Below the pieces are notes generated by a model. The model worked only from the letters and a program-made list of their open reading frames with translations, did not search any database and was not told the origin of the DNA. This document shows positions 990 to 9,832 of a stretch of 64,000 nucleotides of DNA, in pieces. How positions within the stretch are numbered: position 1 is the first letter of the stretch; each line of letters begins with the position of its first letter. Location of the stretch: assembly GCA_963666315.2 (NCBI GenBank), contig CAXXHG010000018.1:32001-96000 (forward strand), in the 5' to 3' direction. Position numbers and translations under genes: made by a program. Source of the stretch: Candidatus Binatia bacterium (GTDB taxonomy: Bacteria; Desulfobacterota; Binatia; Bin18).

Positions 990-1490
990 CTATTCATTCA
1001 ATTGTTGGAGAAAAGCTTCAAGGAACTGACCGCTGTAATGAATTCCTTGCTCTTGCATGCGCTCAAGGAAAGGACGAACTCTGGAAATGACTCCTCGACG
1101 TTTCGCACGAACGAGAAGCCCAGCCGTACGGATAATGCGAAGACCACGAGCAAGTGCAACTGAACGCGCTGCACGCTCGTCAAGTAGCAGGTCGTCGGCA
1201 ACGATCTCTTCAGCTAATACGATGGTCTCGGCTTCACCGCGATCAAGGAGAAGGAAAAGTTCCGGTGGATTCGTCCGAACAGCTCGGACCTCGACCCAAG
1301 AAGCGGTACGGATCTCTGCTGCGCCCAGGCGATTATTCGCTCTTGTGATTTCCTGCCAAACCGCCTCCGGAATCAACACTTGCCCGACAATACGTTGGAG
1401 GAGGACTAACTCTCCAATACGCGCAAACGCAATCAGTGGGGTAGAATTGCTAACAATTATTCGGGGCGGAGTCTCGCTTGGCAGCTGCAA
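990..1490 (-). CDS. DUF3368 / PIN-domain putative toxin (start uncertain)
   Basis: IIVSNSTPLIAF, LDRGEAETIVLA, LLLDERAAR motifs; directly downstream of a UPF0175 gene. Confidence 0.85.
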   Translation of the reverse strand: MQLPSETPPRIIVSNSTPLIAFARIGELVLLQRIVGQVLIPEAVWQEITRANNRLGAAEIRTASWVEVRAVRTNPPELFLLLDRGEAETIVLAEEIVADDLLLDERAARSVALARGLRIIRTAGLLVRAKRRGVISRVRPFLERMQEQGIHYSGQFLEAFLQQLNE

Positions 1491-1512
1491 TTTCTGCCGT
1501 TGCGTCTTCAGC

Positions 1513-1728
1513 CTAAAGATCAAAGGTCGGAATGCCTCGGGTAGCCAAGACATCCATAAAGTCGAGGCGAGACAACCCCGCCAGCCGAGCGGATTGGCCA
1601 AGGGACAAGCGTTTTTCACGCAGGTAGTGGATCGCAGCAACCAAACGCATCTCTTTGGCCAACTCAGCTGGCTGCTCGCCAAGAGTCACGAGCAGATCAT
1701 CAGGAATATCCAAAGAAACCCGCGGCAT
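1513..1728 (-). CDS. UPF0175 family putative antitoxin; TAG at 1513-1515 is probably premature (frame stays open to 1450)
   Basis: EMRLVAAIHYLREKRLSLGQSARLAGLSRLDFMDVL...GIP; after the TAG the frame continues AEDATAEIAAAK. Confidence 0.8.
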   Translation of the reverse strand: MPRVSLDIPDDLLVTLGEQPAELAKEMRLVAAIHYLREKRLSLGQSARLAGLSRLDFMDVLATRGIPTFDL

Positions 1729-2144: not shown

Positions 2145-3128
2145 CTACTTGTCTGCCTTCTCATCACTAGGGCGAAGTAGGTCCAACGTCCGCTCCACTT
2201 TCCGCAGGTCCTCAGTTTCTAGGCCATGTCACAGATAAATGTCACGAGCTGCCTCAAGCAACTCCAGCGCGTCCTCTAGCTTTCCTTGGCCGGCATAGGC
2301 GAGGCCGATATTCCCGAGGGCATTGGCTTCGCCCAGGGGGTTACCTATCTTCCTATAAAGCTCTAAGGCGGCTTGATCGGTTGTCAGCGCGTCCCCGAGC
2401 TTCTTCTGCTGAGACGAGACCGATACCATTACGAAGGGCTGCCTCAAAGTCCTTCTTTCTTCTTTGCCGTGCAGTTTTTAGACCTAGCAAATAGGCCGCC
2501 TCCGCCTCTCTAATATCTGAGATCTGTCAGAGAGTATTCCCGAGGTTTAAATACGCCGACATCGTCGGCAGCACGTTGATTGACTTCCGATACGTGGAGG
2601 CGGCATCTCGGTAGCGCTCGGCGACATAATCCCGTTCGGCACTCTCAAAGTAGTCCGCAGCTTCCTTCGCACGCTCAGCGGGCATCTCTTCGATCTCCTG
2701 CTTGGACCCGTAAGCGGTCGCCTTTGGGGGTTCCTTCTTAGTATCGTCGGACAAAGCTATAGCAGGTTGTACATTGAGCAAGTCCCTAAAAGTCATGGCC
2801 CCGTAGGAAACCACCGCGCCAGTAACAGCAAGCAAGAGAAAGAGTGGGCGGTTGCGCGTTGCCCAGCCCAAAAACTTTGCGAGAGTTGGTTGGGGAAGAA
2901 GTTCTACTGGGGTGATCGTCGCTGAAAGCATTAAGCCGGCAAGGGCCGCTAAGAGGCCGCTGAGCCCTACGAGGACGGTCAAGAGGCGTAACACGAATTT
3001 CCGCCTTCGATGAGAACATTATCTTTTGTGGGTGCCCGACCGGTCTCGCTCACCAGCCGCTCGCGCAGACGGGGATCCTCTTTTGCGGAACTTTTCTCTT
3101 CCGCCTCCCGAGCTGTAGAAGCTGCCAT
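2145..3128 (-). pseudogene. Membrane-anchored tetratricopeptide-repeat protein, disrupted
   Basis: Two hydrophobic helices then TPR motifs (SAYLNLGNTL, GEANALGNIGLAYAGQGKLEDALE); in-frame TGA at 2527 and 2229 plus frameshifts. Confidence 0.7.
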
Positions 3129-3160
3129 ACTAGTTTTGTCCGGGCCCTGTTAGGCTACGA

Positions 3161-3400
3161 TCAAGATGAGGATTGGAGAGCTACTTCTATTCTGTTTTTG
3201 CCAACCGCAAAATATGTCGATCTTGCTCGATGCCGATGAAGCGGCGACCTTCGTGGGGGGCGGCTCCCGTTGTACCGCTGCACATGAAGGGGTCGAGGAT
3301 CAGCCCCTCTGGGAGGACGCATTCGATCAGCTGGCGCATGAGGTCAGTCGGTTTGGTGGAGGCTTTGCCCTCTCCGTTCGTATTTCTGACTCGGCGAAGC
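3161..3400 (-). pseudogene. C-terminal remnant of N4/N6 (beta-class) DNA methyltransferase
   Basis: KPTDLMRQLIE...ILDPFMCSGTTG...GRRFIGIEQD (degenerate SAM-binding DPFxGSGTT); frameshift near the 3' end; no catalytic N-terminal half. Confidence 0.75.
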
Positions 3401-3436
3401 TTGACGCTCGCTTGTGGTTCGCCCGCATGAAGAATA

Positions 3437-3527
3437 GGGCAGATCACCTCAACAGCTCCATGAGCGCTGCACATGAGTTGCGGGCAACCCTCCCCGGCGC
3501 TTTGCGCCACCCCTCCAAGGTGGGAAT
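3437..3527 (+). repeat. Partial copy C of composite repeat (REP-like core)
   Basis: ATGAGCGCTGCACATGAG.TGCGGGCAACCC.CCCCGGCGCTTTGCGCCACCCCTCC is shared with the copies at 4001 and 4528. Confidence 0.8.
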
Positions 3528-3702
3528 TATGCACAGCATGACACCAAAGGAATGCTGTGCTCAAGTAGGGGAATGTTGACGTGACAAGACCTGGAGGAGC
3601 GATGCCTAGCCTATCTGGTTCGGCTGCACTAGCCGGCGGGGGTGTGGTATGCGCGGTGTCAGAGCACCGAGATCTCTAAAGTGTCGCAGCCCAGCCCTTT
3701 AG

Positions 3703-3739
3703 GTAGCACCGACCTTCACCCGTCGGTAAGGATTGAAAC
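3703..3739 (+). CRISPR. Solitary CRISPR-type direct repeat (no array)
   Basis: GTAGCACCGACCTTCACCCGTCGGTAAGGATTGAAAC: 37 nt, GT start, ACCGAC/GTCGGT stem, ATTGAAAC 3' end; only one copy seen in the window. Confidence 0.65.
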
Positions 3740-3758
3740 AACGGTTGGGTGTTCTCTG

Positions 3759-3794
3759 CGCCTCTCGGATTGTGACTCCGAGAGACGTTTTTTT
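3759..3794 (+). terminator. Rho-independent terminator
   Basis: CGCCTCTCGGA-ttgtgac-TCCGAGAGACG followed by T7. Confidence 0.75.
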
Positions 3795-3930
3795 AGGGCG
3801 CTGTCTTATCGAGTATCCGCTCGGTAAGACGTGCCACGTAGCGGACCTCTCGCACGATGTAGGTCAGCGCGATAGCTCCGATCACCATCTGTCCGACCAG
3901 CATCATGGCGAGTATGATATGCTCCGTTAT
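3793..3930 (-). CDS. Small single-pass membrane peptide (45 aa; ATA at the expected start position)
   Basis: (I/M)TEHIILAMMLVGQMVIGAIALTYIVREVRYVARLTERILDKTAP; GGAGG RBS upstream; promoter-like TTGCAA-N17-AACAAT. Confidence 0.55.
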   Translation of the reverse strand: MTEHIILAMMLVGQMVIGAIALTYIVREVRYVARLTERILDKTAP

Positions 3931-3949
3931 CCTTCCTCCTGTCTGATTT

Positions 3950-3978
3950 ATTGTTCTGCATTCCATCCCGTGTTGCAA
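3950..3978 (-). promoter_or_regulatory. Putative sigma70 promoter of the 45-aa peptide gene
   Basis: TTGCAA (3978-3973), 17 nt, AACAAT (3955-3950). Confidence 0.4.
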
Positions 3979-4000
3979 CCTCCTTTTTCTTCCTCGGTCA

Positions 4001-4244
4001 GGTCGCACGGGGAACGTTTAGCGCTTGGCTGGGGGTGGCGCTTATTGGCTCTATCTCCTGGGACTGGCCGCGCTGGAATCTCTATCCCCGCTCGATGCTG
4101 TTAGCGGACGAGTCGCCTCAGGAGCGAGATGAGCGCTGCGCATGGGTTGCGGGCAACCCACCCCATCGCTACGCGCCACCCCGCCCAAGAGGGGATATTG
4201 TTGGAGGGAGATTAAGACAAGTCTTGCCGGTGGGTCGCGCCACG
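4001..4244 (+). repeat. Composite repeat copy A (interrupted inside its terminal REP; resumes at 4448-4500)
   Basis: Collinear, clearly homologous to 4528-4770 by visual alignment. Confidence 0.9.
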
Positions 4245-4254
4245 ATTCTAAGAA

Positions 4255-4347
4255 TCAACGGTGGGTTGCAACTTTGTAAGCAAACCAAACAGCCGCACCG
4301 ATGACGCCAAAAATAACGAACAGTCCAACGACGTAATCAAAACTCAT
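4255..4347 (-). CDS. Small membrane peptide (30 aa)
   Basis: MSFDYVVGLFVIFGVIGAAVWFAYKVATHR*; AAGGAGG RBS 6 nt upstream; TATAGT -10 at 4371-4366. Confidence 0.65.
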   Translation of the reverse strand: MSFDYVVGLFVIFGVIGAAVWFAYKVATHR

Positions 4348-4447
4348 GCGTCGCCTCCTTTTCGAACTATAGCGAGAATCTGCTTGTACTGAAACCAGGC
4401 CAGCGGGCCTAAACTGATCGTGCCAAGAACACCAGCTACCGGTCTCT

Positions 4448-4500
4448 CCGGTGGGTCGCGCTACGCTTGACCCACCCTACAATTCTACAAACAGCAGGTG
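4448..4500 (+). repeat. GTAG-family REP (minus orientation) plus tail shared with the end of copy B
   Basis: CCGGTGGGTCGCGCTACGCTTGACCCACCCTACAATTCTACAAACAG vs 4754-4800 CCGGTGGGCCGCGCGTAGCGCGACCCACCTTACAGTTCTACAAACAG. Confidence 0.8.
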
Positions 4501-4527
4501 CTGTTTGTCTGACGAAAAGAAAAGTAG

Positions 4528-4807
4528 GGTTGCACGGGCAACGTTTGGCGCCGGGCTGGGGGTGGCGCTTATTGGCTTTATCCTCTGGGGCTTGCCGCGC
4601 TGGAATCTCTATCGCCACTCGATGCTGTGAGCGGGCGAATCACCTCAGGAGCGAGATGAGCGCTGCGCATGAGGTGCGGGCAACCCACCCCGGCGCTTTG
4701 CGCCACCCCTCCACGGAGGGGATATTGTTGAGGGGAGATTAAGACAAGTCTTGCCGGTGGGCCGCGCGTAGCGCGACCCACCTTACAGTTCTACAAACAG
4801 GATGTGC
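4528..4807 (+). repeat. Composite repeat copy B (uninterrupted)
   Basis: Gene-end-like segment (VARATFGAGLGVALIGFILWGLPRWNLYRHSML*) plus two different REP-like hairpins. Confidence 0.9.
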
Positions 4808-4846
4808 ACCGGTACGACGGACCAATGCTCCGCGTTCTCGGGTCAC

Positions 4847-5348
4847 TTAGGGCAGCTCGCGGCCGAGCCAATCCGTATAGAACGCTTGGAGGTTAGGCGT
4901 GAAGTTCGCCAGGATAGGATACCCAGGCGGGACTGCGTCTACTTCAAGTTGGCGGCCACAGCCCGGACAGACGAACTCCCGAATTTCATTCTTCTCCGGA
5001 TCCGGGCTGCGCGGCCCGGACCAGATTTCCTCCAGACTCTCGGTCGTGTCGCGCACATGGATCAACGCACCTAGCTTCCAATTATCGCGGTAGTCACCAA
5101 ACTCTTGTCCGCACAGACACTTGACCGCGTACACGCCCTCAATTCTTCACAATCGAGAGCACCGGCGAGAGGGGCAGAATAATCGGCTCATCCCAGTCCA
5201 CGCGCGACTGCAAGACGCGAACATAGACATCGAACCGCTTCGGGTCCTTGAACGAGGATTGGATGTGATGGACATCGTCCCACGGCAATTCACCGTCCAG
5301 GAGTTGGCCCAGAGTGGCCTCATCAATCTCAACAACTTGTCCTGCCAT
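4847..5348 (-). pseudogene. acxC: Acetone carboxylase gamma-subunit-like protein, frameshifted near 5140
   Basis: KDPKRFDVY...WDEPIILPL in one frame; VKCLCGQEFGDYRDNWK...EFVCPGCG (CxC/CxxC Zn site) in the next. Confidence 0.85.
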
Positions 5349-5364
5349 ATTTAGAACTCCGCAA

Positions 5365-7647
5365 CTAGAACTCTGCTGGATCATCTGCCACACGGGATAC
5401 GCCTGAGCGTAGCGCGAGCGGGTTGACGTCCCGAATCTCGGGTCGATCAAAGGTGAAGGACTCCTCAAAGCCCCAGAAGTCGCGGTATTCACGCATCCAT
5501 TTTTTCGAGTGCGAGCTCACATCCTTGTATATCTCGAGCACGACTTGCGGCAGATCATACTTCTCGATGCGTGCGCGCTGCGCGGCGACCCACTCCCGCG
5601 TAGGCACGGCCCTGGTCTTGCGGCCTTCTCGCAGCGCTCGCCGCTTGGCCTCTGACGCCTCGACATTCACACACCACCGATTCTCGCGCTCATCACGTTC
5701 GACCACCACGCCACAGATCTTTTCGACCATCTCAGTCGTGACGATGCCGTTCTCGAGATCGTCTTCGATCCGCTTGGGATCGCGTTCCAAGGGATCACCG
5801 AATCCACCCATGCCACGGTACTGCATGAGCAGTATATCGCCATTCTTCATTGGTTTCTCGACCGTCATATTCCCGTGCGAAATCTGGACCTTGCCCTTTA
5901 AGAGGCGCGTCAGATCCGGGTTGTTGGGGTCGTCGCCTTCGCCCGTGGGCAACTCATCCTGATTCGCTATGCGTTCCTTGATGTCGGAATCGGTCATGAC
6001 GTAGACGTAATGGATCTTGCCCGGATAGCCGCCGAAAAGCCCCTGGTGGTCGAAAGCTCGAGCCTGACACAGCTCGGTAGTCACGACGAGCTGATTGGAT
6101 TTGTGCGTGAGTAGGAGCGACTGCCAGCCGTTGCCGCCCCGGTATTTACCGAAACCGTGGGCGTTGGGGAGAATATTCCGGCCTAGATAGAGCTGCGGAA
6201 AGAGCTGTTCCCAGATTTCCGCGTTGCCCATATCGGATTCCGGATTCCACAACACATATCCAAAATCGATGCCGTCCGTGATCGCCCGGGCACCGCTGCC
6301 TTGGGCCGCAAGTTCGAAGTTGGTCCCGCCGAATACCTTGCCATACTGATCCACCCCACCCGCGTCATAGCTGGGAGTCAGGGCGCCAAACAGGAAGGTC
6401 TCTTCAACAAAGCCCCGCATAAAGGTCGAGCGGGCCATCATCCGATACCAGTTGGCCCAGCCCGGCATGACCAGATTCCAGCCCAGGGAGGTCGAGGCAT
6501 ATTTGTTGTCAGGCCACACTAACGTGCCCTTCGGGAATTTCAGCTCTGTGCCCAAATAGCTGCCGTGGTTGATGCGACCGTCAAAGTTCAGGGCTTGGGA
6601 CATAGAGACGAAGAGACCGCCCTCCATGGCAGCCGGCGTTGCATTGCCCGACCAATAGCGCCACGAACCCGTCCCATCGAAATCGATCGTCATCTTGCCC
6701 GAACTGTGGACTTTCATTTCGAGCGGCAAGATGATGGTCACGTTGCCGTCGGCCAGCGGCGAGAGCCCGGCCTGGCCCTCCATATTTTGGTCAGAGGTGG
6801 TGACTTCTTTATAGATGCCGGGAACCAGGACGGTCTTGACGCGCTCGAGCTGGGTTTGGCGCGCGCCTTCAATGTATTCGTTGACGGCATGATTGTAATA
6901 ATCGATGCCGAACTCTTCAATGGTCGCCAGGATCTCATCCCGGGCTAATATCGCACCGGTCACGCGCGCCTTGGTATCCAGAATCCACAGGTCCGGCGAG
7001 CGAACGCTCCGCTCGGCGCGTACTTCGTAGTGTTTGTAGATACTGTCGTTTTCGCCTATCTTCTCGGCGCAGATGATGAGTCCTTCGGTGAAGCGCTCTG
7101 AGGCTAAGACCGGCATACTGCCCGGCGTGATCCCGCCCACTTCGAGCACATGGGTCACCATGCCCGTCCAGCCGATGAGTTCGCCCTCCCAGATAACGGG
7201 CGTCACGTCCATGACATCCGGGATATGCACGCCACCGATATAGGTGTCGTTATTCTCGAAAATGTCTCCGTGCTTGAAGCCCGGATCAGTCTCGTAATCG
7301 TGCTCGATCATCCATTTGATAAAGCGGCTCATCGTATGCACGTGGACCATGATACCACCGGAAAACACGACCGAGTCACCTTCAGGCGTATACATGCCAA
7401 CGACGGACTCGCCCACCTCACGCGTTGCGGGTGAACAGGCAACCTTCGAGCCCACCTGCTGCGAGCTGATCATAATCGACTGGAGACGAGAGAAGAGCAG
7501 CTCGTAGCGAATCACGTCTTTGTTCTTCAGCCGAAGCTCCGAAACGCCGTTATAGTGTCCGGTTGTTTCCAACAGATGCTTCGAGCGGAGCCTGCGCGCA
7601 TTCAGCGACACCGGAATGACTGAGTCTTTGAGCAGTTGTGCACACAT
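5365..7647 (-). CDS. acxB: Acetone carboxylase alpha-subunit-like (hydantoinase B/oxoprolinase family)
   Basis: IRYELLFSRL, EVGES, GIMVHVHTM, HIPD and THVLE metal-ligand motifs, GFGKYRGG, GGFGDPLERD. Confidence 0.88.
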   Translation of the reverse strand: MCAQLLKDSVIPVSLNARRLRSKHLLETTGHYNGVSELRLKNKDVIRYELLFSRLQSIMISSQQVGSKVACSPATREVGESVVGMYTPEGDSVVFSGGIMVHVHTMSRFIKWMIEHDYETDPGFKHGDIFENNDTYIGGVHIPDVMDVTPVIWEGELIGWTGMVTHVLEVGGITPGSMPVLASERFTEGLIICAEKIGENDSIYKHYEVRAERSVRSPDLWILDTKARVTGAILARDEILATIEEFGIDYYNHAVNEYIEGARQTQLERVKTVLVPGIYKEVTTSDQNMEGQAGLSPLADGNVTIILPLEMKVHSSGKMTIDFDGTGSWRYWSGNATPAAMEGGLFVSMSQALNFDGRINHGSYLGTELKFPKGTLVWPDNKYASTSLGWNLVMPGWANWYRMMARSTFMRGFVEETFLFGALTPSYDAGGVDQYGKVFGGTNFELAAQGSGARAITDGIDFGYVLWNPESDMGNAEIWEQLFPQLYLGRNILPNAHGFGKYRGGNGWQSLLLTHKSNQLVVTTELCQARAFDHQGLFGGYPGKIHYVYVMTDSDIKERIANQDELPTGEGDDPNNPDLTRLLKGKVQISHGNMTVEKPMKNGDILLMQYRGMGGFGDPLERDPKRIEDDLENGIVTTEMVEKICGVVVERDERENRWCVNVEASEAKRRALREGRKTRAVPTREWVAAQRARIEKYDLPQVVLEIYKDVSSHSKKWMREYRDFWGFEESFTFDRPEIRDVNPLALRSGVSRVADDPAEF

Positions 7648-7678: not shown

Positions 7679-9832
7679 CTACGGGTTCTTGCGGTTCTCG
7701 CGATTCTCGAGCCAGATAAATTTGCGCTCATCTACCCGCGCTAGCCGATTGGCAGGAACGAAGAGCGTGGTTGCCGGGTGTTCGATAACTGCGAGGCCTT
7801 CGATGATATTCCCTGGCTGGAGCGTATCCATGTCAAGAATACGAGCAGTTTGCCAGCCCCCGTCGGAATAGAGCCGCCGCGTCCCCCGCTCCGCTTCCAG
7901 CGGTGGGGTCGGGCCCTGGAGCTCGTGGATGGGCAGCTCCGGCTTGCGCGTCTCAATGGAGGCCACCAGGGCCAGCTGCAAGATGGCGTACCCGGCCTTG
8001 GGATACTTTGCCGCCTTGGCGAACATCTTGGTATACAAGTCCTCAAAACTCTCGATCAAGCGGTCGACATCCTCGGCTGTCGCCGTCCACTCCCCCTCAA
8101 TCGGAACCTCCACATCATCCAACTGGCCGCCGTAGCGCACAAAGGCGATGCGCTTATAGAACACTTGTCCGAGGTCCATTTCTTCGCGCTGGAAGCTGTC
8201 GCGTGCCTCGGCTTCAAGGGTATCCCACAGCTTCGAGAGCCCGGCGGCGACCGTCTGCTTGGCCGCCTTGTCAGCGCCCCGGGGGATGCTGAACAGGCAG
8301 GAGCGCGTATAGCGGTGAGAATAGTCGGTCGTCGTGCAGCCAAAGGCGGAAAAGGCGGCGGCAAAGGGAAAGGTCACAACGCCCTGAAAGGGCAGGTTGT
8401 CGGAGACCCCGGCCAAGATCAGCGGGCCCGCGCCGCCGTACCCCATGATGATGTAATCGGCGATAGCGGCACCCCGTACGCGAATCGCGCGCTTGGTCGC
8501 CTCCTGAGCCATTTGTAGCCAGAGCTTGATGACACCGTCGGCGCACTCGTGGACTTCGAGTCCCAAGGGGTCAGCGATCTGGGCTTTGAGTTCCCGCTAC
8601 GCGGCAAGCAGATTCAGGATGATCTTGCCACCCAGGAAGTTATCTTTATTGAGATGGCCGTTAATCGCCAGGCAGTCGGTAATCGTGGGTTGGAGATTGC
8701 CACGATCGAAGCAGACCGGACCAGGGTTAGCACCGGCGCCTTCTGGTCCCATCACAATGCGATTGGTAATCGGGTCAACCGACAAATACAGCCCGGCTCC
8801 ACCCCGAATGCTGTCCAGCACGATACTCGGCAGATTGAGTCGGAAACGCGCAATTTCGGGTTCGTTGTTGAGATCGACGGTCCCATTGGTAATCAAGCCG
8901 AAGTCGTAGCTCGTCCCACCCATATCTACGGCAAGTACGTTCTTGGCACCCAGAAGCCGGGACACGAACTGGGCGCCCAAGATGCCGCCTATGGGGCCCG
9001 AGATCAGGGTCTCGTGCAGTCGAGGGTGGCGGATGTTGGCCAGCCCGCCATAGGACAGCATAGTCGTCATCTGTTTGCGGTAGCCACTCTCCTTGGCCCT
9101 ATTCTCTACATTGTGCAGCTGCTGGCGTACCGGGTCGGCCGCGTATGCCTCGATTGTGGTGGCGTTAACGCGCTGGTTTTCACGGATCACCGGCCGAACG
9201 CGTGAAGACGGATAGATCGGCAGCGTCTGAGCCTGCTGCTCCATCGCCTCCTGACAAATCGCTTCCATACGTTCCTCATTGGCCGGATTGGCGTAGGAAT
9301 GCAAAAAGCAGATGGCGATGCCTTCGATGTCTTGATCCAAGAGTTCGTCGACTGCCCGGCGGGCGTCTTTTTCATACAGGGGGATAACGATGTCGCCGAA
9401 CATATCGGTTCGCTCGGACACGCCCCGGATGCGGCGTCGGGGAACGAGAGGGTCATTGTGGACATGAGTTACGGCGTGCAGGCGGTCGGCGTAGGAATAG
9501 CCTGACCACACTTGTCGCCCTTGCTCCATCAATAAGATGTCTTCAAACCCTTTGGAGACGATCAGTCCGATGCGGCGCCCCGTTCGCGTGAGCAGCGTGT
9601 TGAGCATCGTTGTCCCGGCATAGACCAAAACCTCAAACTGAGAGAACGCCTTCTGCTGATCCAAGCCCCATTGCTCAAAGGCATCCTCGGCGGATTCCAT
9701 AAACCCCTCGGATTCATCCCAGGGGGTGGTTGGGGCTTTGCCGATAACGAAATTGCCCTCGGTGTCGACCACAAAGGTATCTGTCATCGTTCCGCCAGCG
9801 TCCATGGCCAAAGCAAGTACATTCCGCGTCAC
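7679..9832 (-). pseudogene. acxA: Acetone carboxylase beta-subunit-like (hydantoinase A), in-frame TAG at 8597-8599
   Basis: DAGGTMTDTF, SGPIGG, DMGGTSYD, YGGAGP; both ORF halves share one frame across LLAA*RELKAQIADPLG. Confidence 0.85.

What the first reader, a model, noticed from the sequence alone, without database searches (positions are those of the whole stretch)
3600..3800. Solitary CRISPR-type repeat + 19 nt + terminator: candidate crRNA-mimic small RNA with no array or cas genes nearby
Seen: one 37-nt unit GTAGCACCGACCTTCACCCGTCGGTAAGGATTGAAAC (3703-3739) has the GT start, internal ACCGAC/GTCGGT stem and ATTGAAAC end of class 1 CRISPR repeats. It is followed by 19 nt (3740-3758) and a strong hairpin + T7 terminator, with a weak promoter-like TGGTATGC about 55 nt upstream. 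No second copy or cas gene was seen in the window. It lies beside a DNA methyltransferase remnant and ends tail-to-tail with a small hydrophobic ORF. Known: solitary repeat units on mobile elements can act as RNA anti-CRISPRs (Racrs) or regulatory CRISPR-like RNAs (CreA/CreR). Inference: endonucleolytic processing would give an ATTGAAAC 5' handle, a short guide and a terminator-derived 3' hairpin, i.e. a Cascade decoy or repression guide, possibly linked to the adjacent peptide gene.
Basis: partly seen in the sequence, partly recalled or inferred. Interest (0 to 1): 0.78.

Follow-up and report, generated by a model that had tools for sequence, protein, structure and literature searches.

The report
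Orphan type I-C CRISPR repeat relic
A single, partly decayed CRISPR repeat sits among broken mobile-element genes in a genome with no detectable CRISPR-associated genes, so it is most likely a leftover of a lost immune locus and not a working RNA mimic.

Summary
A 37-nt unit at 3703-3739 (+) is a single, genuine CRISPR repeat. It belongs to a family that forms arrays beside a cas3-cas5d-csd1-cas7-cas4-cas1 operon (type I-C) in a genome of the same genus. It differs at 6 or more positions from every array repeat found, and two stem pairs are broken, one at the expected Cas5c cut site. The assembled genome (92% complete) has no Cas1, RAMP, Cas6 or type I-C Cas homologues and no arrays. It does have two more degenerate solo units, one still attached to a recognisable type I-C leader. 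The unit abuts a truncated IS1595 transposase pseudogene, inside a 6.2-kb stretch that the closest relative lacks. DNA contigs from three runs cross it unchanged, so it is not a collapsed array. I found no promoter, no PAM-flanked target and no copy elsewhere. The hairpin lies within an RNA-library contig that spans the convergent small peptide gene. Best reading is an orphan relic (about 0.65). A Racr-like, CreA-like or antisense role is not excluded but is unsupported. Interest is low to moderate.

The parts
3190..3384 (-). C-terminal remnant of an N4/N6 DNA methyltransferase
   Evidence: Pfam N6_N4_Mtase, profile positions 155-220 of 221, residues 61-123 of the ORF 3187-3564, E = 6.8e-13.
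3437..3527 (.). Copy of a dispersed REP-like element (other copies at 4106-4196 and 4633-4723)
   Evidence: the repeat finder family D2. About 20 copies of its ~45-nt core occur in the genome, and it is present in most genus genomes.
3512..3688 (+). Pseudogene remnant (left end and about 40 N-terminal codons, with 2 in-frame stops and a deletion) of an IS1595-family transposase, truncated 15 nt before the repeat
   Evidence: 77% identity to G000:C18:146666-146857. The intact paralogue carries Zn_ribbon_IS1595 and DDE_Tnp_IS1595. Translations are compared.
3703..3739 (+). Solitary, degenerate type I-C CRISPR repeat: 5' GTAGC; stem 3708-3713 with 3722-3727; loop 3714-3721; A at 3728 where the family has G; 11-nt tail AGGATTGAAAC at 3729-3739
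3740..3761 (+).
   Evidence: Fold of 3703-3794. No PAM-flanked target found.
3762..3794 (+). 8-11-bp G+C-rich hairpin followed by T7. This is a canonical intrinsic terminator on the + strand only. The same hairpin lies in the 3' part of the RNA-library contig of the convergent small gene.
   Evidence: Terminator scan; folds (- strand z = -4.87); RNA-library contig 3747-3936.
3793..3906 (-). Small ORF of 37 aa (hydrophobic N-terminal half, charged C-terminal half). Its stop codon overlaps the T-run.
   Evidence: A 190-nt contig from an RNA library matches 3747-3936 exactly. No homologue found in 150 other genomes of the class.
3950..3978 (-). Weak promoter-like site TTGCAA-17 nt-AACAAT for the small ORF (8 of 12 matches, below the scan's cut-off)
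   Evidence: Read by eye. The RNA-library contig begins at 3936. This is an inference.
4255..4347 (-). Second small hydrophobic ORF (30 aa) with AAGGAGG 6 nt upstream of its ATG
   Evidence: No Pfam match.

Best explanation
The unit is an orphan, partly decayed type I-C CRISPR repeat. It is most likely a leftover of an array, or of a mobile-element-borne solitary unit, whose partners were lost. An IS1595 element inserted beside it, and a later deletion truncated both. The deletion left one repeat between the transposase stub and the terminator region shared with a convergent small peptide gene. No Cas5c or Cascade is detectable in this genome, so the unit cannot act now as a crRNA, a Cascade guide or a decoy in this cell. 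If it is transcribed at all, that would be read-through from the IS stub, stopped at the T7 terminator.

Shown: family identity, solitary state, lack of cas genes in the assembly, decayed surroundings, and absence from relatives.

Inferred: the order of events, and the lack of present function.
For: 1. Family. The degenerate pattern found 77 stretches in genome contigs, 42 of them with 3 or more regularly spaced copies. In the window's genus, 14 of 27 other genomes carry it. In G007, a 147-repeat array lies next to cas3, cas5d, csd1, cas7, cas4 and cas1, followed by a short ORF not scanned here (likely cas2).

2. No partner.
- Cas1, RAMP and Cas6 families: 0 matches in the own genome.
- tblastn with the six G007 Cas proteins: no hit at E <= 1e-3.
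- A simple array scan found only two non-CRISPR tandem repeats.
- No type I-E repeat was found.

3. Loss is common in the genus. Csd1 was found in only 4 of 27 other genus genomes. So 11 of the 14 repeat-bearing genomes lack it, several of them single-contig assemblies.

4. Other relics in the same genome. A profile search gives exactly three hits below E = 0.001: C21, this unit and C19. The next hit has E = 0.71. The C21 unit keeps about 70 nt of the leader shared by the type I-C arrays of G002, G014, G019 and G007, but has only one repeat.

5. Decay.
- The unit differs at 6 or more of 37 positions from all 63 distinct family repeats.
- The loop-proximal pair (C-G in the genus consensus, but variable across the family) and the stem-closing C-G pair are both lost (G to A at 3728).

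6. Context.
- A truncated IS1595 pseudogene ends 15 nt upstream.
- An MTase remnant and REP-like elements lie close by.
- The whole 6.2-kb stretch (G000:C18:30586-36830) is replaced by 480 nt in the closest relative G024, whose flanks are about 90% identical.

7. Not an artefact. DNA contigs of X1 (3000-3849), X2 (3353-3778) and X3 (3515-3760), from two studies, cross the unit with 0 differences and no joint.
Against: - The 11-nt handle is fully intact, and the stem keeps a compensatory G:C to A:T change. This hints at constraint. However, a G:T intermediate exists in relatives, and my searches favour intact handles.
- A canonical + strand terminator follows 22 nt downstream with no + strand gene to terminate. 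This fits a dedicated small transcript, as in H. hispanica CreA.
- Solitary units of the same family occur in 6 viral stretches, giving 5 distinct units. A type I-C Racr has been validated experimentally (PMC10651486).
- The genome is only 92% complete, so a cas locus on an unbinned contig cannot be excluded.
- No flank of the unit is homologous to a leader or trailer of a relative's array. Its origin from an array is therefore inferred, not shown.
Confidence: 0.65

Rival explanations
1. Racr-like decoy. The unit is a solitary repeat unit carried by a now degraded mobile island. When transcribed, it mimics type I-C repeats and ties up Cas5c and Cas7 of hosts in this genus that do have type I-C systems.
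For: - The unit is solitary and has an intact 11-nt handle and stem.
- A terminator lies just downstream.
- Solitary units of the same family occur in 6 viral stretches.
- A type I-C Racr (RacrIC1) has been shown to inhibit type I-C (passages in PMC10651486).
- 4 of 27 other genus genomes carry Csd1.
- The surrounding stretch is variable and holds mobile-element debris.
Against: - The island has no phage, plasmid or integrase genes among the ORFs scanned.
- The host assembly lacks cas genes. [quoted passage not shown]
- No promoter was called.
- No acr-like neighbour was seen.
- The mutation at the stem base could impair recognition by Cas5c.
- No related unit was found in phage or plasmid records or in viral contigs.
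Confidence: 0.12
2. CreA-like or crlRNA-like guide. The repeat plus the 3740-3775 sequence forms a degenerate crRNA that directs Cascade to repress a promoter, possibly that of the adjacent small peptide gene acting as a toxin.
For: - The layout (repeat-like sequence, spacer-like sequence, T-rich terminator) equals that described for H. hispanica creA.
- A small hydrophobic peptide gene lies convergent to it and is covered by an RNA-library contig.
- One genomic site, C21:164674 (-), has a TTC PAM followed by 10 matching seed bases.
Against: - No Cascade genes were found in the genome.
- The unit is not next to a cas operon.
- Near the peptide gene the best local match is 10 of 12 with an ATC PAM, and it lies at the stop codon of another ORF.
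- The single TTC-flanked site is inside a coding region. Chance alone would give it: about 0.5 TTC-flanked sites are expected among the 35 sites with 3 or fewer mismatches.
- A CreTA module that had lost Cascade would leave its toxin unrepressed.
Confidence: 0.04
3. Cas-independent antisense RNA. A + strand RNA that ends at the T7 terminator overlaps the 3' end (about 3747-3794) of the small peptide mRNA. It would act like the antitoxin of a type I toxin-antitoxin pair, and the repeat hairpin would be only a structural module of that RNA.
For: - The arrangement is convergent with a shared hairpin.
- The T-run is canonical only on the + strand.
- The peptide has a hydrophobic N-terminal half.
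- The RNA-library contig spans 3747-3936.
Against: - No + strand promoter was called.
- The peptide has no homologues in the 150 class genomes searched and has a poorly placed ribosome-binding site.
- Nothing shows that a + strand RNA exists.
- The comparison with known type I pairs is recalled, not tested.
Confidence: 0.08
4. Assembly artefact. An ordinary CRISPR array was collapsed to one repeat by the assembler.
For: CRISPR arrays often break or collapse in metagenome assemblies, and the genome is a 47-contig draft.
Against: - Contigs from three runs in two studies cross the unit with unique flanks on both sides, 0 differences and no joints or loose ends at the repeat.
- The left flank is an IS pseudogene and the right flank a unique gene.
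Confidence: 0.02

Closest known systems
Type I-C CRISPR repeats (37-nt variant; Rfam CRISPR-DR9-like), processed by Cas5c/Cas5d
   Same: Length of 37 nt, 5' GTAGC, a central stem-loop, and an invariant 11-nt AGGATTGAAAC tail. The same family forms arrays beside type I-C cas operons in the same genus.
   Different: A single copy with no leader and no cas genes. It differs at 6 or more of 37 positions from all family repeats found. The stem is shortened from 8-9 bp to 6 bp, and the base next to the cut site is changed. It scores below the Rfam gathering score (22.9 against 45).
Solitary repeat units / RNA anti-CRISPRs (Racrs, e.g. RacrIC1; PMC10651486)
   Same: A lone repeat not associated with cas genes. 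The subtype is one for which a Racr has been validated. Viral contigs carry units of the same family.
   Different: It is not on a recognisable virus or plasmid. The host assembly lacks the cognate system. No promoter or acr neighbour was found. Expression is not shown.
CreA of CreTA modules and other crRNA-like regulatory RNAs (PMC8501985; listing of bioRxiv 10.1101/2024.10.29.618823)
   Same: One repeat-like element, then a short spacer-like sequence, then a T-rich terminator, next to a small gene.
   Different: It is not in or beside a cas operon. There is no seed-plus-PAM match to a neighbouring promoter, and no Cascade in the genome.
Orphan or remnant CRISPR loci left after cas loss
   Same: Degenerate repeats persist without cas genes. 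The same genome has a leader plus one repeat on C21, and 11 genus genomes have 1-3 repeats without Csd1.
   Different: This unit has no leader or trailer homology to relatives' arrays, so its descent from an array is inferred.

Membership tests
Type I-C CRISPR repeat family | Sequence and structure: about 37 nt, stem-loop, 11-nt 3' tail AGGATTGAAAC | tested here: met
   Profile of 63 family repeats: E = 9.4e-7. Fold shows a stem plus an 11-nt tail. Full-length alignment to Rfam CRISPR-DR9.
Type I-C CRISPR repeat family | Family members form arrays adjacent to type I-C cas genes | tested here: met
   In G007, a 147-repeat array lies beside cas3, cas5d, csd1, cas7, cas4 and cas1.
Type I-C CRISPR repeat family | Reaches the curated Rfam gathering score | tested here: not met
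   CRISPR-DR9 scores 22.9 bits against a gathering score of 45. There was no match at the gathering threshold in the whole window.
CRISPR array | Two or more repeats at regular spacing | tested here: not met
   One copy in the window and one at this locus. The flanks show no repeat-like sequence. Contigs of three runs agree.
Racr / viral solitary repeat unit | Repeat mimic that is truly solitary | tested here: met
Racr / viral solitary repeat unit | Encoded on a virus, prophage or plasmid | tested here: inconclusive
   The 6.2-kb variable stretch holds IS and MTase debris and a toxin-antitoxin pair. No phage, plasmid or integrase genes were seen among the ORFs scanned.
Racr / viral solitary repeat unit | Host carries the cognate CRISPR-Cas subtype | tested here: not met
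   No Cas1, RAMP, Cas6 or type I-C Cas homologues in the 92%-complete assembly. Csd1 is present in 4 of 27 other genus genomes.
Racr / viral solitary repeat unit | Expressed as a small RNA that binds Cas proteins and inhibits interference | not testable with these tools
   The only RNA-library contig (3747-3936) does not bear on small RNAs.
CreA (CreTA) / crRNA-like regulator | Repeat-like element plus spacer-like element plus terminator | tested here: met
   Compared with the passage in PMC8501985.
CreA (CreTA) / crRNA-like regulator | Located within or beside a cas operon and dependent on Cascade | tested here: not met
   No cas genes in the window or the genome.
CreA (CreTA) / crRNA-like regulator | Seed (positions 1-5 and 7-11) pairs with a PAM-flanked site in the promoter of the partner gene | tested here: not met
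   Local and genome-wide searches found none in a promoter.
Type I toxin-antitoxin pair | Small hydrophobic toxin peptide with an overlapping antisense RNA | tested here: inconclusive
   A peptide gene is present and is covered by an RNA-library contig. An antisense RNA and toxicity are not shown.

The most novel reading that the evidence does not exclude
The repeat has been exapted. A short + strand RNA made of a CRISPR-repeat hairpin, a 22-nt linker and a terminator survives in a cas-less genome because it acts without Cas proteins. It would work either as an antisense partner of the convergent, expressed small membrane-peptide gene, or as a decoy that matters when the island moves into type I-C-bearing relatives. 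The many 1-3-copy type I-C units in cas-less genomes of this genus point the same way. These include a repeat-spacer-repeat module conserved directly upstream of a GYD-like gene in 7 species. On this reading, CRISPR repeats are being reused there as general RNA or promoter modules.
Probability: 0.1. Interest if true: 0.6.

Novelty: new member of a known kind. Interest (0 to 1): 0.27.

Why it matters
For this locus, little. It documents how a CRISPR locus decays to single repeats after cas loss, and how IS elements take part in that decay. It also shows that a lone repeat next to a terminator is not enough to call a crRNA mimic.

The wider pattern may be worth a dedicated look. In this genus, 11 of 14 repeat-bearing genomes lack the type I-C signature gene yet keep 1-3 repeat units. 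Some units sit immediately upstream of start codons. One repeat-spacer-repeat module is conserved across 7 species. If these units are maintained by selection, CRISPR repeats would have a cas-independent afterlife as regulatory RNA or promoter elements.

Tried and rejected
**Searches for the unit elsewhere that found nothing**
- The exact repeat within 3 mismatches in 60 relatives: only the own copy.
- Its 3' half in metagenome contigs: 0.
- The hairpin 23-mer in metagenome contigs and viral contigs: 0.
- The repeat-linker junction in viral contigs: 0.
- The 111-nt unit against phage records: no match. Against plasmid records: one irrelevant 25-nt hit.
- DNA search of 2400-5400 in the genus: only the flanking acetone-carboxylase gene (G024), IS and REP-like pieces matched. 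Nothing matched over 3690-3960.

**Target search**
- 35 non-self sites have 3 or fewer mismatches to the first 16 nt of the linker. One has a TTC PAM, and it lies inside an ORF. I judged it chance.
- Local matches near the peptide gene were not above what shuffles can reach. The observed best was 10 of 12, and the shuffle maximum was 10.

**Comparisons with relatives' arrays**
- Trailer sequences of relatives' arrays show no similarity to the unit's downstream flank.
- Leader comparison: no similarity for this unit.

**Peptide and neighbouring genes**
- The small peptide has no homologue in 150 other class genomes and no Pfam match.
- The GYD-like gene that follows the conserved mini-array in relatives is not found in the own genome.

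**RNA cover**
- The one RNA-library run (X6) has no contig over 3703-3746. With contigs at depth 3 and no small-RNA fraction, this says nothing about a small RNA.

**Ideas dropped**
- That 3742-3753 is a fragment of a second repeat's 3' arm (10 of 12 matches by eye). It was post hoc and is not pursued.
- That the intact handle in all three solo units shows selection. My searches required or favoured an intact handle, so this is ascertainment bias.

**Tools and files not available**
Supplementary Data 1-2 of PMC10651486 list the SRUs and may include units of this family.

Full report
**1. Observation**

It is unique within 3 mismatches in the window and in the whole 4.99-Mb, 47-contig, 92.4%-complete genome.

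On its own it folds into a 6-bp stem (3708-3713 with 3722-3727), an 8-nt loop and an 11-nt single-stranded tail. The energy is -8.4 kcal/mol and z = -1.16.

The hairpin at 3762-3784 with T7 at 3788-3794 was the first + strand site listed by the terminator scan in 3000-5000. That scan found no + strand promoter-like site.

The methyltransferase remnant and the convergent small ORF at 3793-3906, 37 aa, are both real.

**2. What the repeat is**

A degenerate pattern built from the unit (23 specified bases) found 77 stretches in one-genome-per-species contigs.
- 42 stretches hold 3 or more regularly spaced copies.
- 4 hold two copies.
- 31 hold one exact match. I did not check all of these for degenerate neighbours.
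- Record titles include Thermus, Armatimonadota, Candidatus Binatia, 'Entotheonella' and Chloroflexota.

The family consensus is GT(T/A)GCACCGGCC-loop-GGCCGGTG-AGGATTGAAAC: an 8-9-bp stem followed by an invariant 11-nt tail.

In the window's own genus, 14 of 27 other genomes carry the pattern. The reversed control pattern matched nowhere.

In G007, a 147-repeat array is preceded by ORFs matching Cas3 (HD and helicase), Cas5d, Csd1, Cas7, Cas4 and Cas1, followed by a short ORF that I did not scan (likely cas2). This is a type I-C operon.

Rfam's CRISPR-DR9 model aligns to the unit over its full length at 22.9 bits, E = 0.0077 over the 361 nt searched. That is below the gathering score of 45.

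**3. State of the unit**

It differs at 6 or more of 37 positions from each of the 63 distinct family repeats collected. Against the genus consensus:
- One stem pair is changed on both sides (G:C to A:T). G:T and A:C intermediates occur in relatives.
- The loop-proximal pair is lost.
- The closing C-G pair is lost, through G to A at 3728, right at the expected cut site.

[quoted passage not shown] Processing is therefore doubtful but not excluded.

**4. No partner in this genome**

- Cas1, RAMP and Cas6 family searches gave no match in the own genome, while the control genomes did give matches.
- tblastn with the six G007 Cas proteins gave no hit at E <= 1e-3.
- A simple scan for regularly spaced repeats found only two tandem coding repeats.
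- No type I-E repeat of the kind seen in relatives is present.

Across the genus, Csd1 is found in 4 of 27 other genomes: G007, G002, G014 and G018. So 11 of the 14 repeat-bearing genomes keep 1-3 repeats without the type I-C signature gene. Several of these are one-contig assemblies. Loss of type I-C with retention of repeat debris is therefore common here, and the absence of cas genes in the window's genome is probably real.

**5. Other relics in the same genome**

A profile of the family, searched against the genome, gives exactly three significant hits (first seen):
- C21:107926-107961, E = 5.1e-9
- this unit, E = 9.4e-7
- C19:41579-41607, E = 1.4e-4

The next hit has E = 0.71.

The C21 unit is preceded by about 70 nt that align with the leaders of the type I-C arrays of G002, G014, G019 and G007, but it is followed by no second repeat. 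It is a leader-plus-one-repeat remnant. The unit under study shares neither leader nor trailer with those arrays.

**6. Surroundings**

- Bases 3512-3688 are 77% identical to a locus 110 kb away on the same contig. That locus encodes an intact IS1595-family transposase with Zn_ribbon_IS1595 and DDE_Tnp_IS1595 domains.
- The window copy keeps only the left end and about 40 codons. It has two in-frame stops and a deletion, and it stops 15 nt before the repeat.
- Further left are an MTase C-terminal fragment and a UPF0175/DUF3368 pair.
- To the right are REP-like elements and a 240-nt duplication.
- Comparison with the closest relative G024, whose flanks are 87-90% identical, shows that G000:C18:30586-36830 (window up to 4830) replaces 480 nt in G024. 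The repeat sits in a 6.2-kb species-specific, decaying stretch.

**7. Not an assembly artefact**

DNA contigs from three public runs in two studies cover 3000-3849, 3353-3778 and 3515-3760 with no differences. There is no joint or loose end at the repeat. One of these runs may be the source sample.

**8. The hairpin and the small gene**

A 190-nt contig from a metatranscriptome library matches 3747-3936 exactly. Contigs give no strand, and DNA can be present in RNA libraries. Even so, the span coincides with a unit read on the - strand:
- a weak promoter-like TTGCAA-17 nt-AACAAT at 3978-3950 (by eye, 8 of 12 matches);
- the 37-aa ORF at 3906-3793;
- the hairpin.

The T-run is canonical only for the + strand. 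It would stop any transcript coming from the IS stub through the repeat. The hairpin is thus shared by two convergent units, and its presence next to the repeat is not by itself evidence for a dedicated small RNA.

**9. Tests of the functional readings**

CreA-like:
- The anatomy fits the passage on H. hispanica creA in PMC8501985.
- The unit is not near cas genes.
- The linker has no seed-plus-PAM match in a promoter. Genome-wide, 1 of 35 near matches has a TTC PAM, and that site lies inside an ORF. Locally nothing exceeds what shuffles reach.

Racr-like:
- Solitary units of the same family exist in 6 viral stretches, giving 5 distinct units, all intergenic.
- A type I-C Racr is experimentally validated (PMC10651486).
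- Here, though, there are no phage or plasmid genes, no cognate host system, no called promoter, and no related unit in viral, phage, plasmid or metagenome collections.

Antisense partner of the peptide gene:
- The geometry allows it, but no + strand RNA has been shown.

**10. Verdict**

| Reading | Probability |
|---|---|
| Orphan type I-C repeat relic, trapped by an IS insertion and deletion, with no Cas partner and no demonstrated function | about 0.65 |
| Racr-like decoy | about 0.12 |
| Cas-independent antisense RNA | about 0.08 |
| CreA-like guide | about 0.04 |
| Assembly artefact | about 0.02 |

Novelty: a new member of a known kind (orphan or solitary CRISPR repeats).

The more interesting lead is genus-wide. 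Many cas-less genomes keep 1-3 type I-C units. Some units lie directly upstream of start codons, and one conserved repeat-spacer-repeat lies in front of a GYD-like gene.

Noticed in passing
Loci L079, L080, L082, L088, L100, L093, L094 (genomes G025, G023, G026, G011, G015, G005, G008): A type I-C-type repeat-spacer-repeat mini-array lies directly upstream of the ribosome-binding site of a 106-aa GYD-like gene ('MGKYMFHATYTQSG...'). The spacer is nearly identical in 6 of the 7 species and longer in G008. In G025, G026, G011 and G015 it follows a type I-E array. None of the 7 genomes has a Csd1 match. By eye, the first repeat's TTGAAA and a TACAAT in the spacer are 18 nt apart, like a sigma-70 promoter.
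   Followed up: partly
L090 (G006) and L091 (G015); viral loci L125-L130: Solitary units of the same repeat family sit 0-25 nt upstream of ribosome-binding sites or start codons of ordinary genes in two cas-less relatives. They also sit between genes in 6 IMG/VR stretches (5 distinct units). This suggests solitary repeat units placed in 5' UTRs or operon junctions.
   Followed up: partly
G000:C21:107926-107961 (L133) and G000:C19:41579-41607 (L134): Two more degenerate solo type I-C repeats occur in the window's genome. The C21 unit retains about 70 nt of the type I-C leader seen in relatives but has only one repeat. The C19 unit has small deletions and lies about 330 nt upstream of a tRNA-like sequence on the opposite strand (judged by eye, not run through a tRNA finder).
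   Followed up: partly
window 3437-3527, 4106-4196, 4633-4723: A REP-like element with a G+C-rich ~45-nt core occurs about 20 times in this genome and in most genus genomes. Summed contig depth spikes to 200-600 at 4664-4727 in three runs.
   Followed up: partly
window 4001-4240 and 4528-4767: A 240-nt direct duplication (88% identity, 527 nt apart). Contigs of two runs show an alternative joint (4731 back to 4219), which suggests copy-number variation of this unit between strains.
   Followed up: no
window 4255-4347 (-): A second small hydrophobic ORF (30 aa) with AAGGAGG 6 nt upstream of its ATG. It is unrelated in sequence to the 37-aa ORF and has no Pfam match.
   Followed up: no
window 8597-8599 (-): An in-frame TAG splits a hydantoinase-A/acetone-carboxylase-beta-like gene into ORFs 8597-9832 and 7679-8566. 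The ortholog in G024 has CAG (Gln) at this codon. This is a nonsense mutation, a strain polymorphism or a sequencing error.
   Followed up: partly
window 990-1728 (-): Overlapping UPF0175 (71 aa) and DUF3368 (230 aa) ORFs, a likely toxin-antitoxin pair, lie inside the same species-specific 6.2-kb stretch next to a Uma2-family endonuclease gene (270-884).
   Followed up: no
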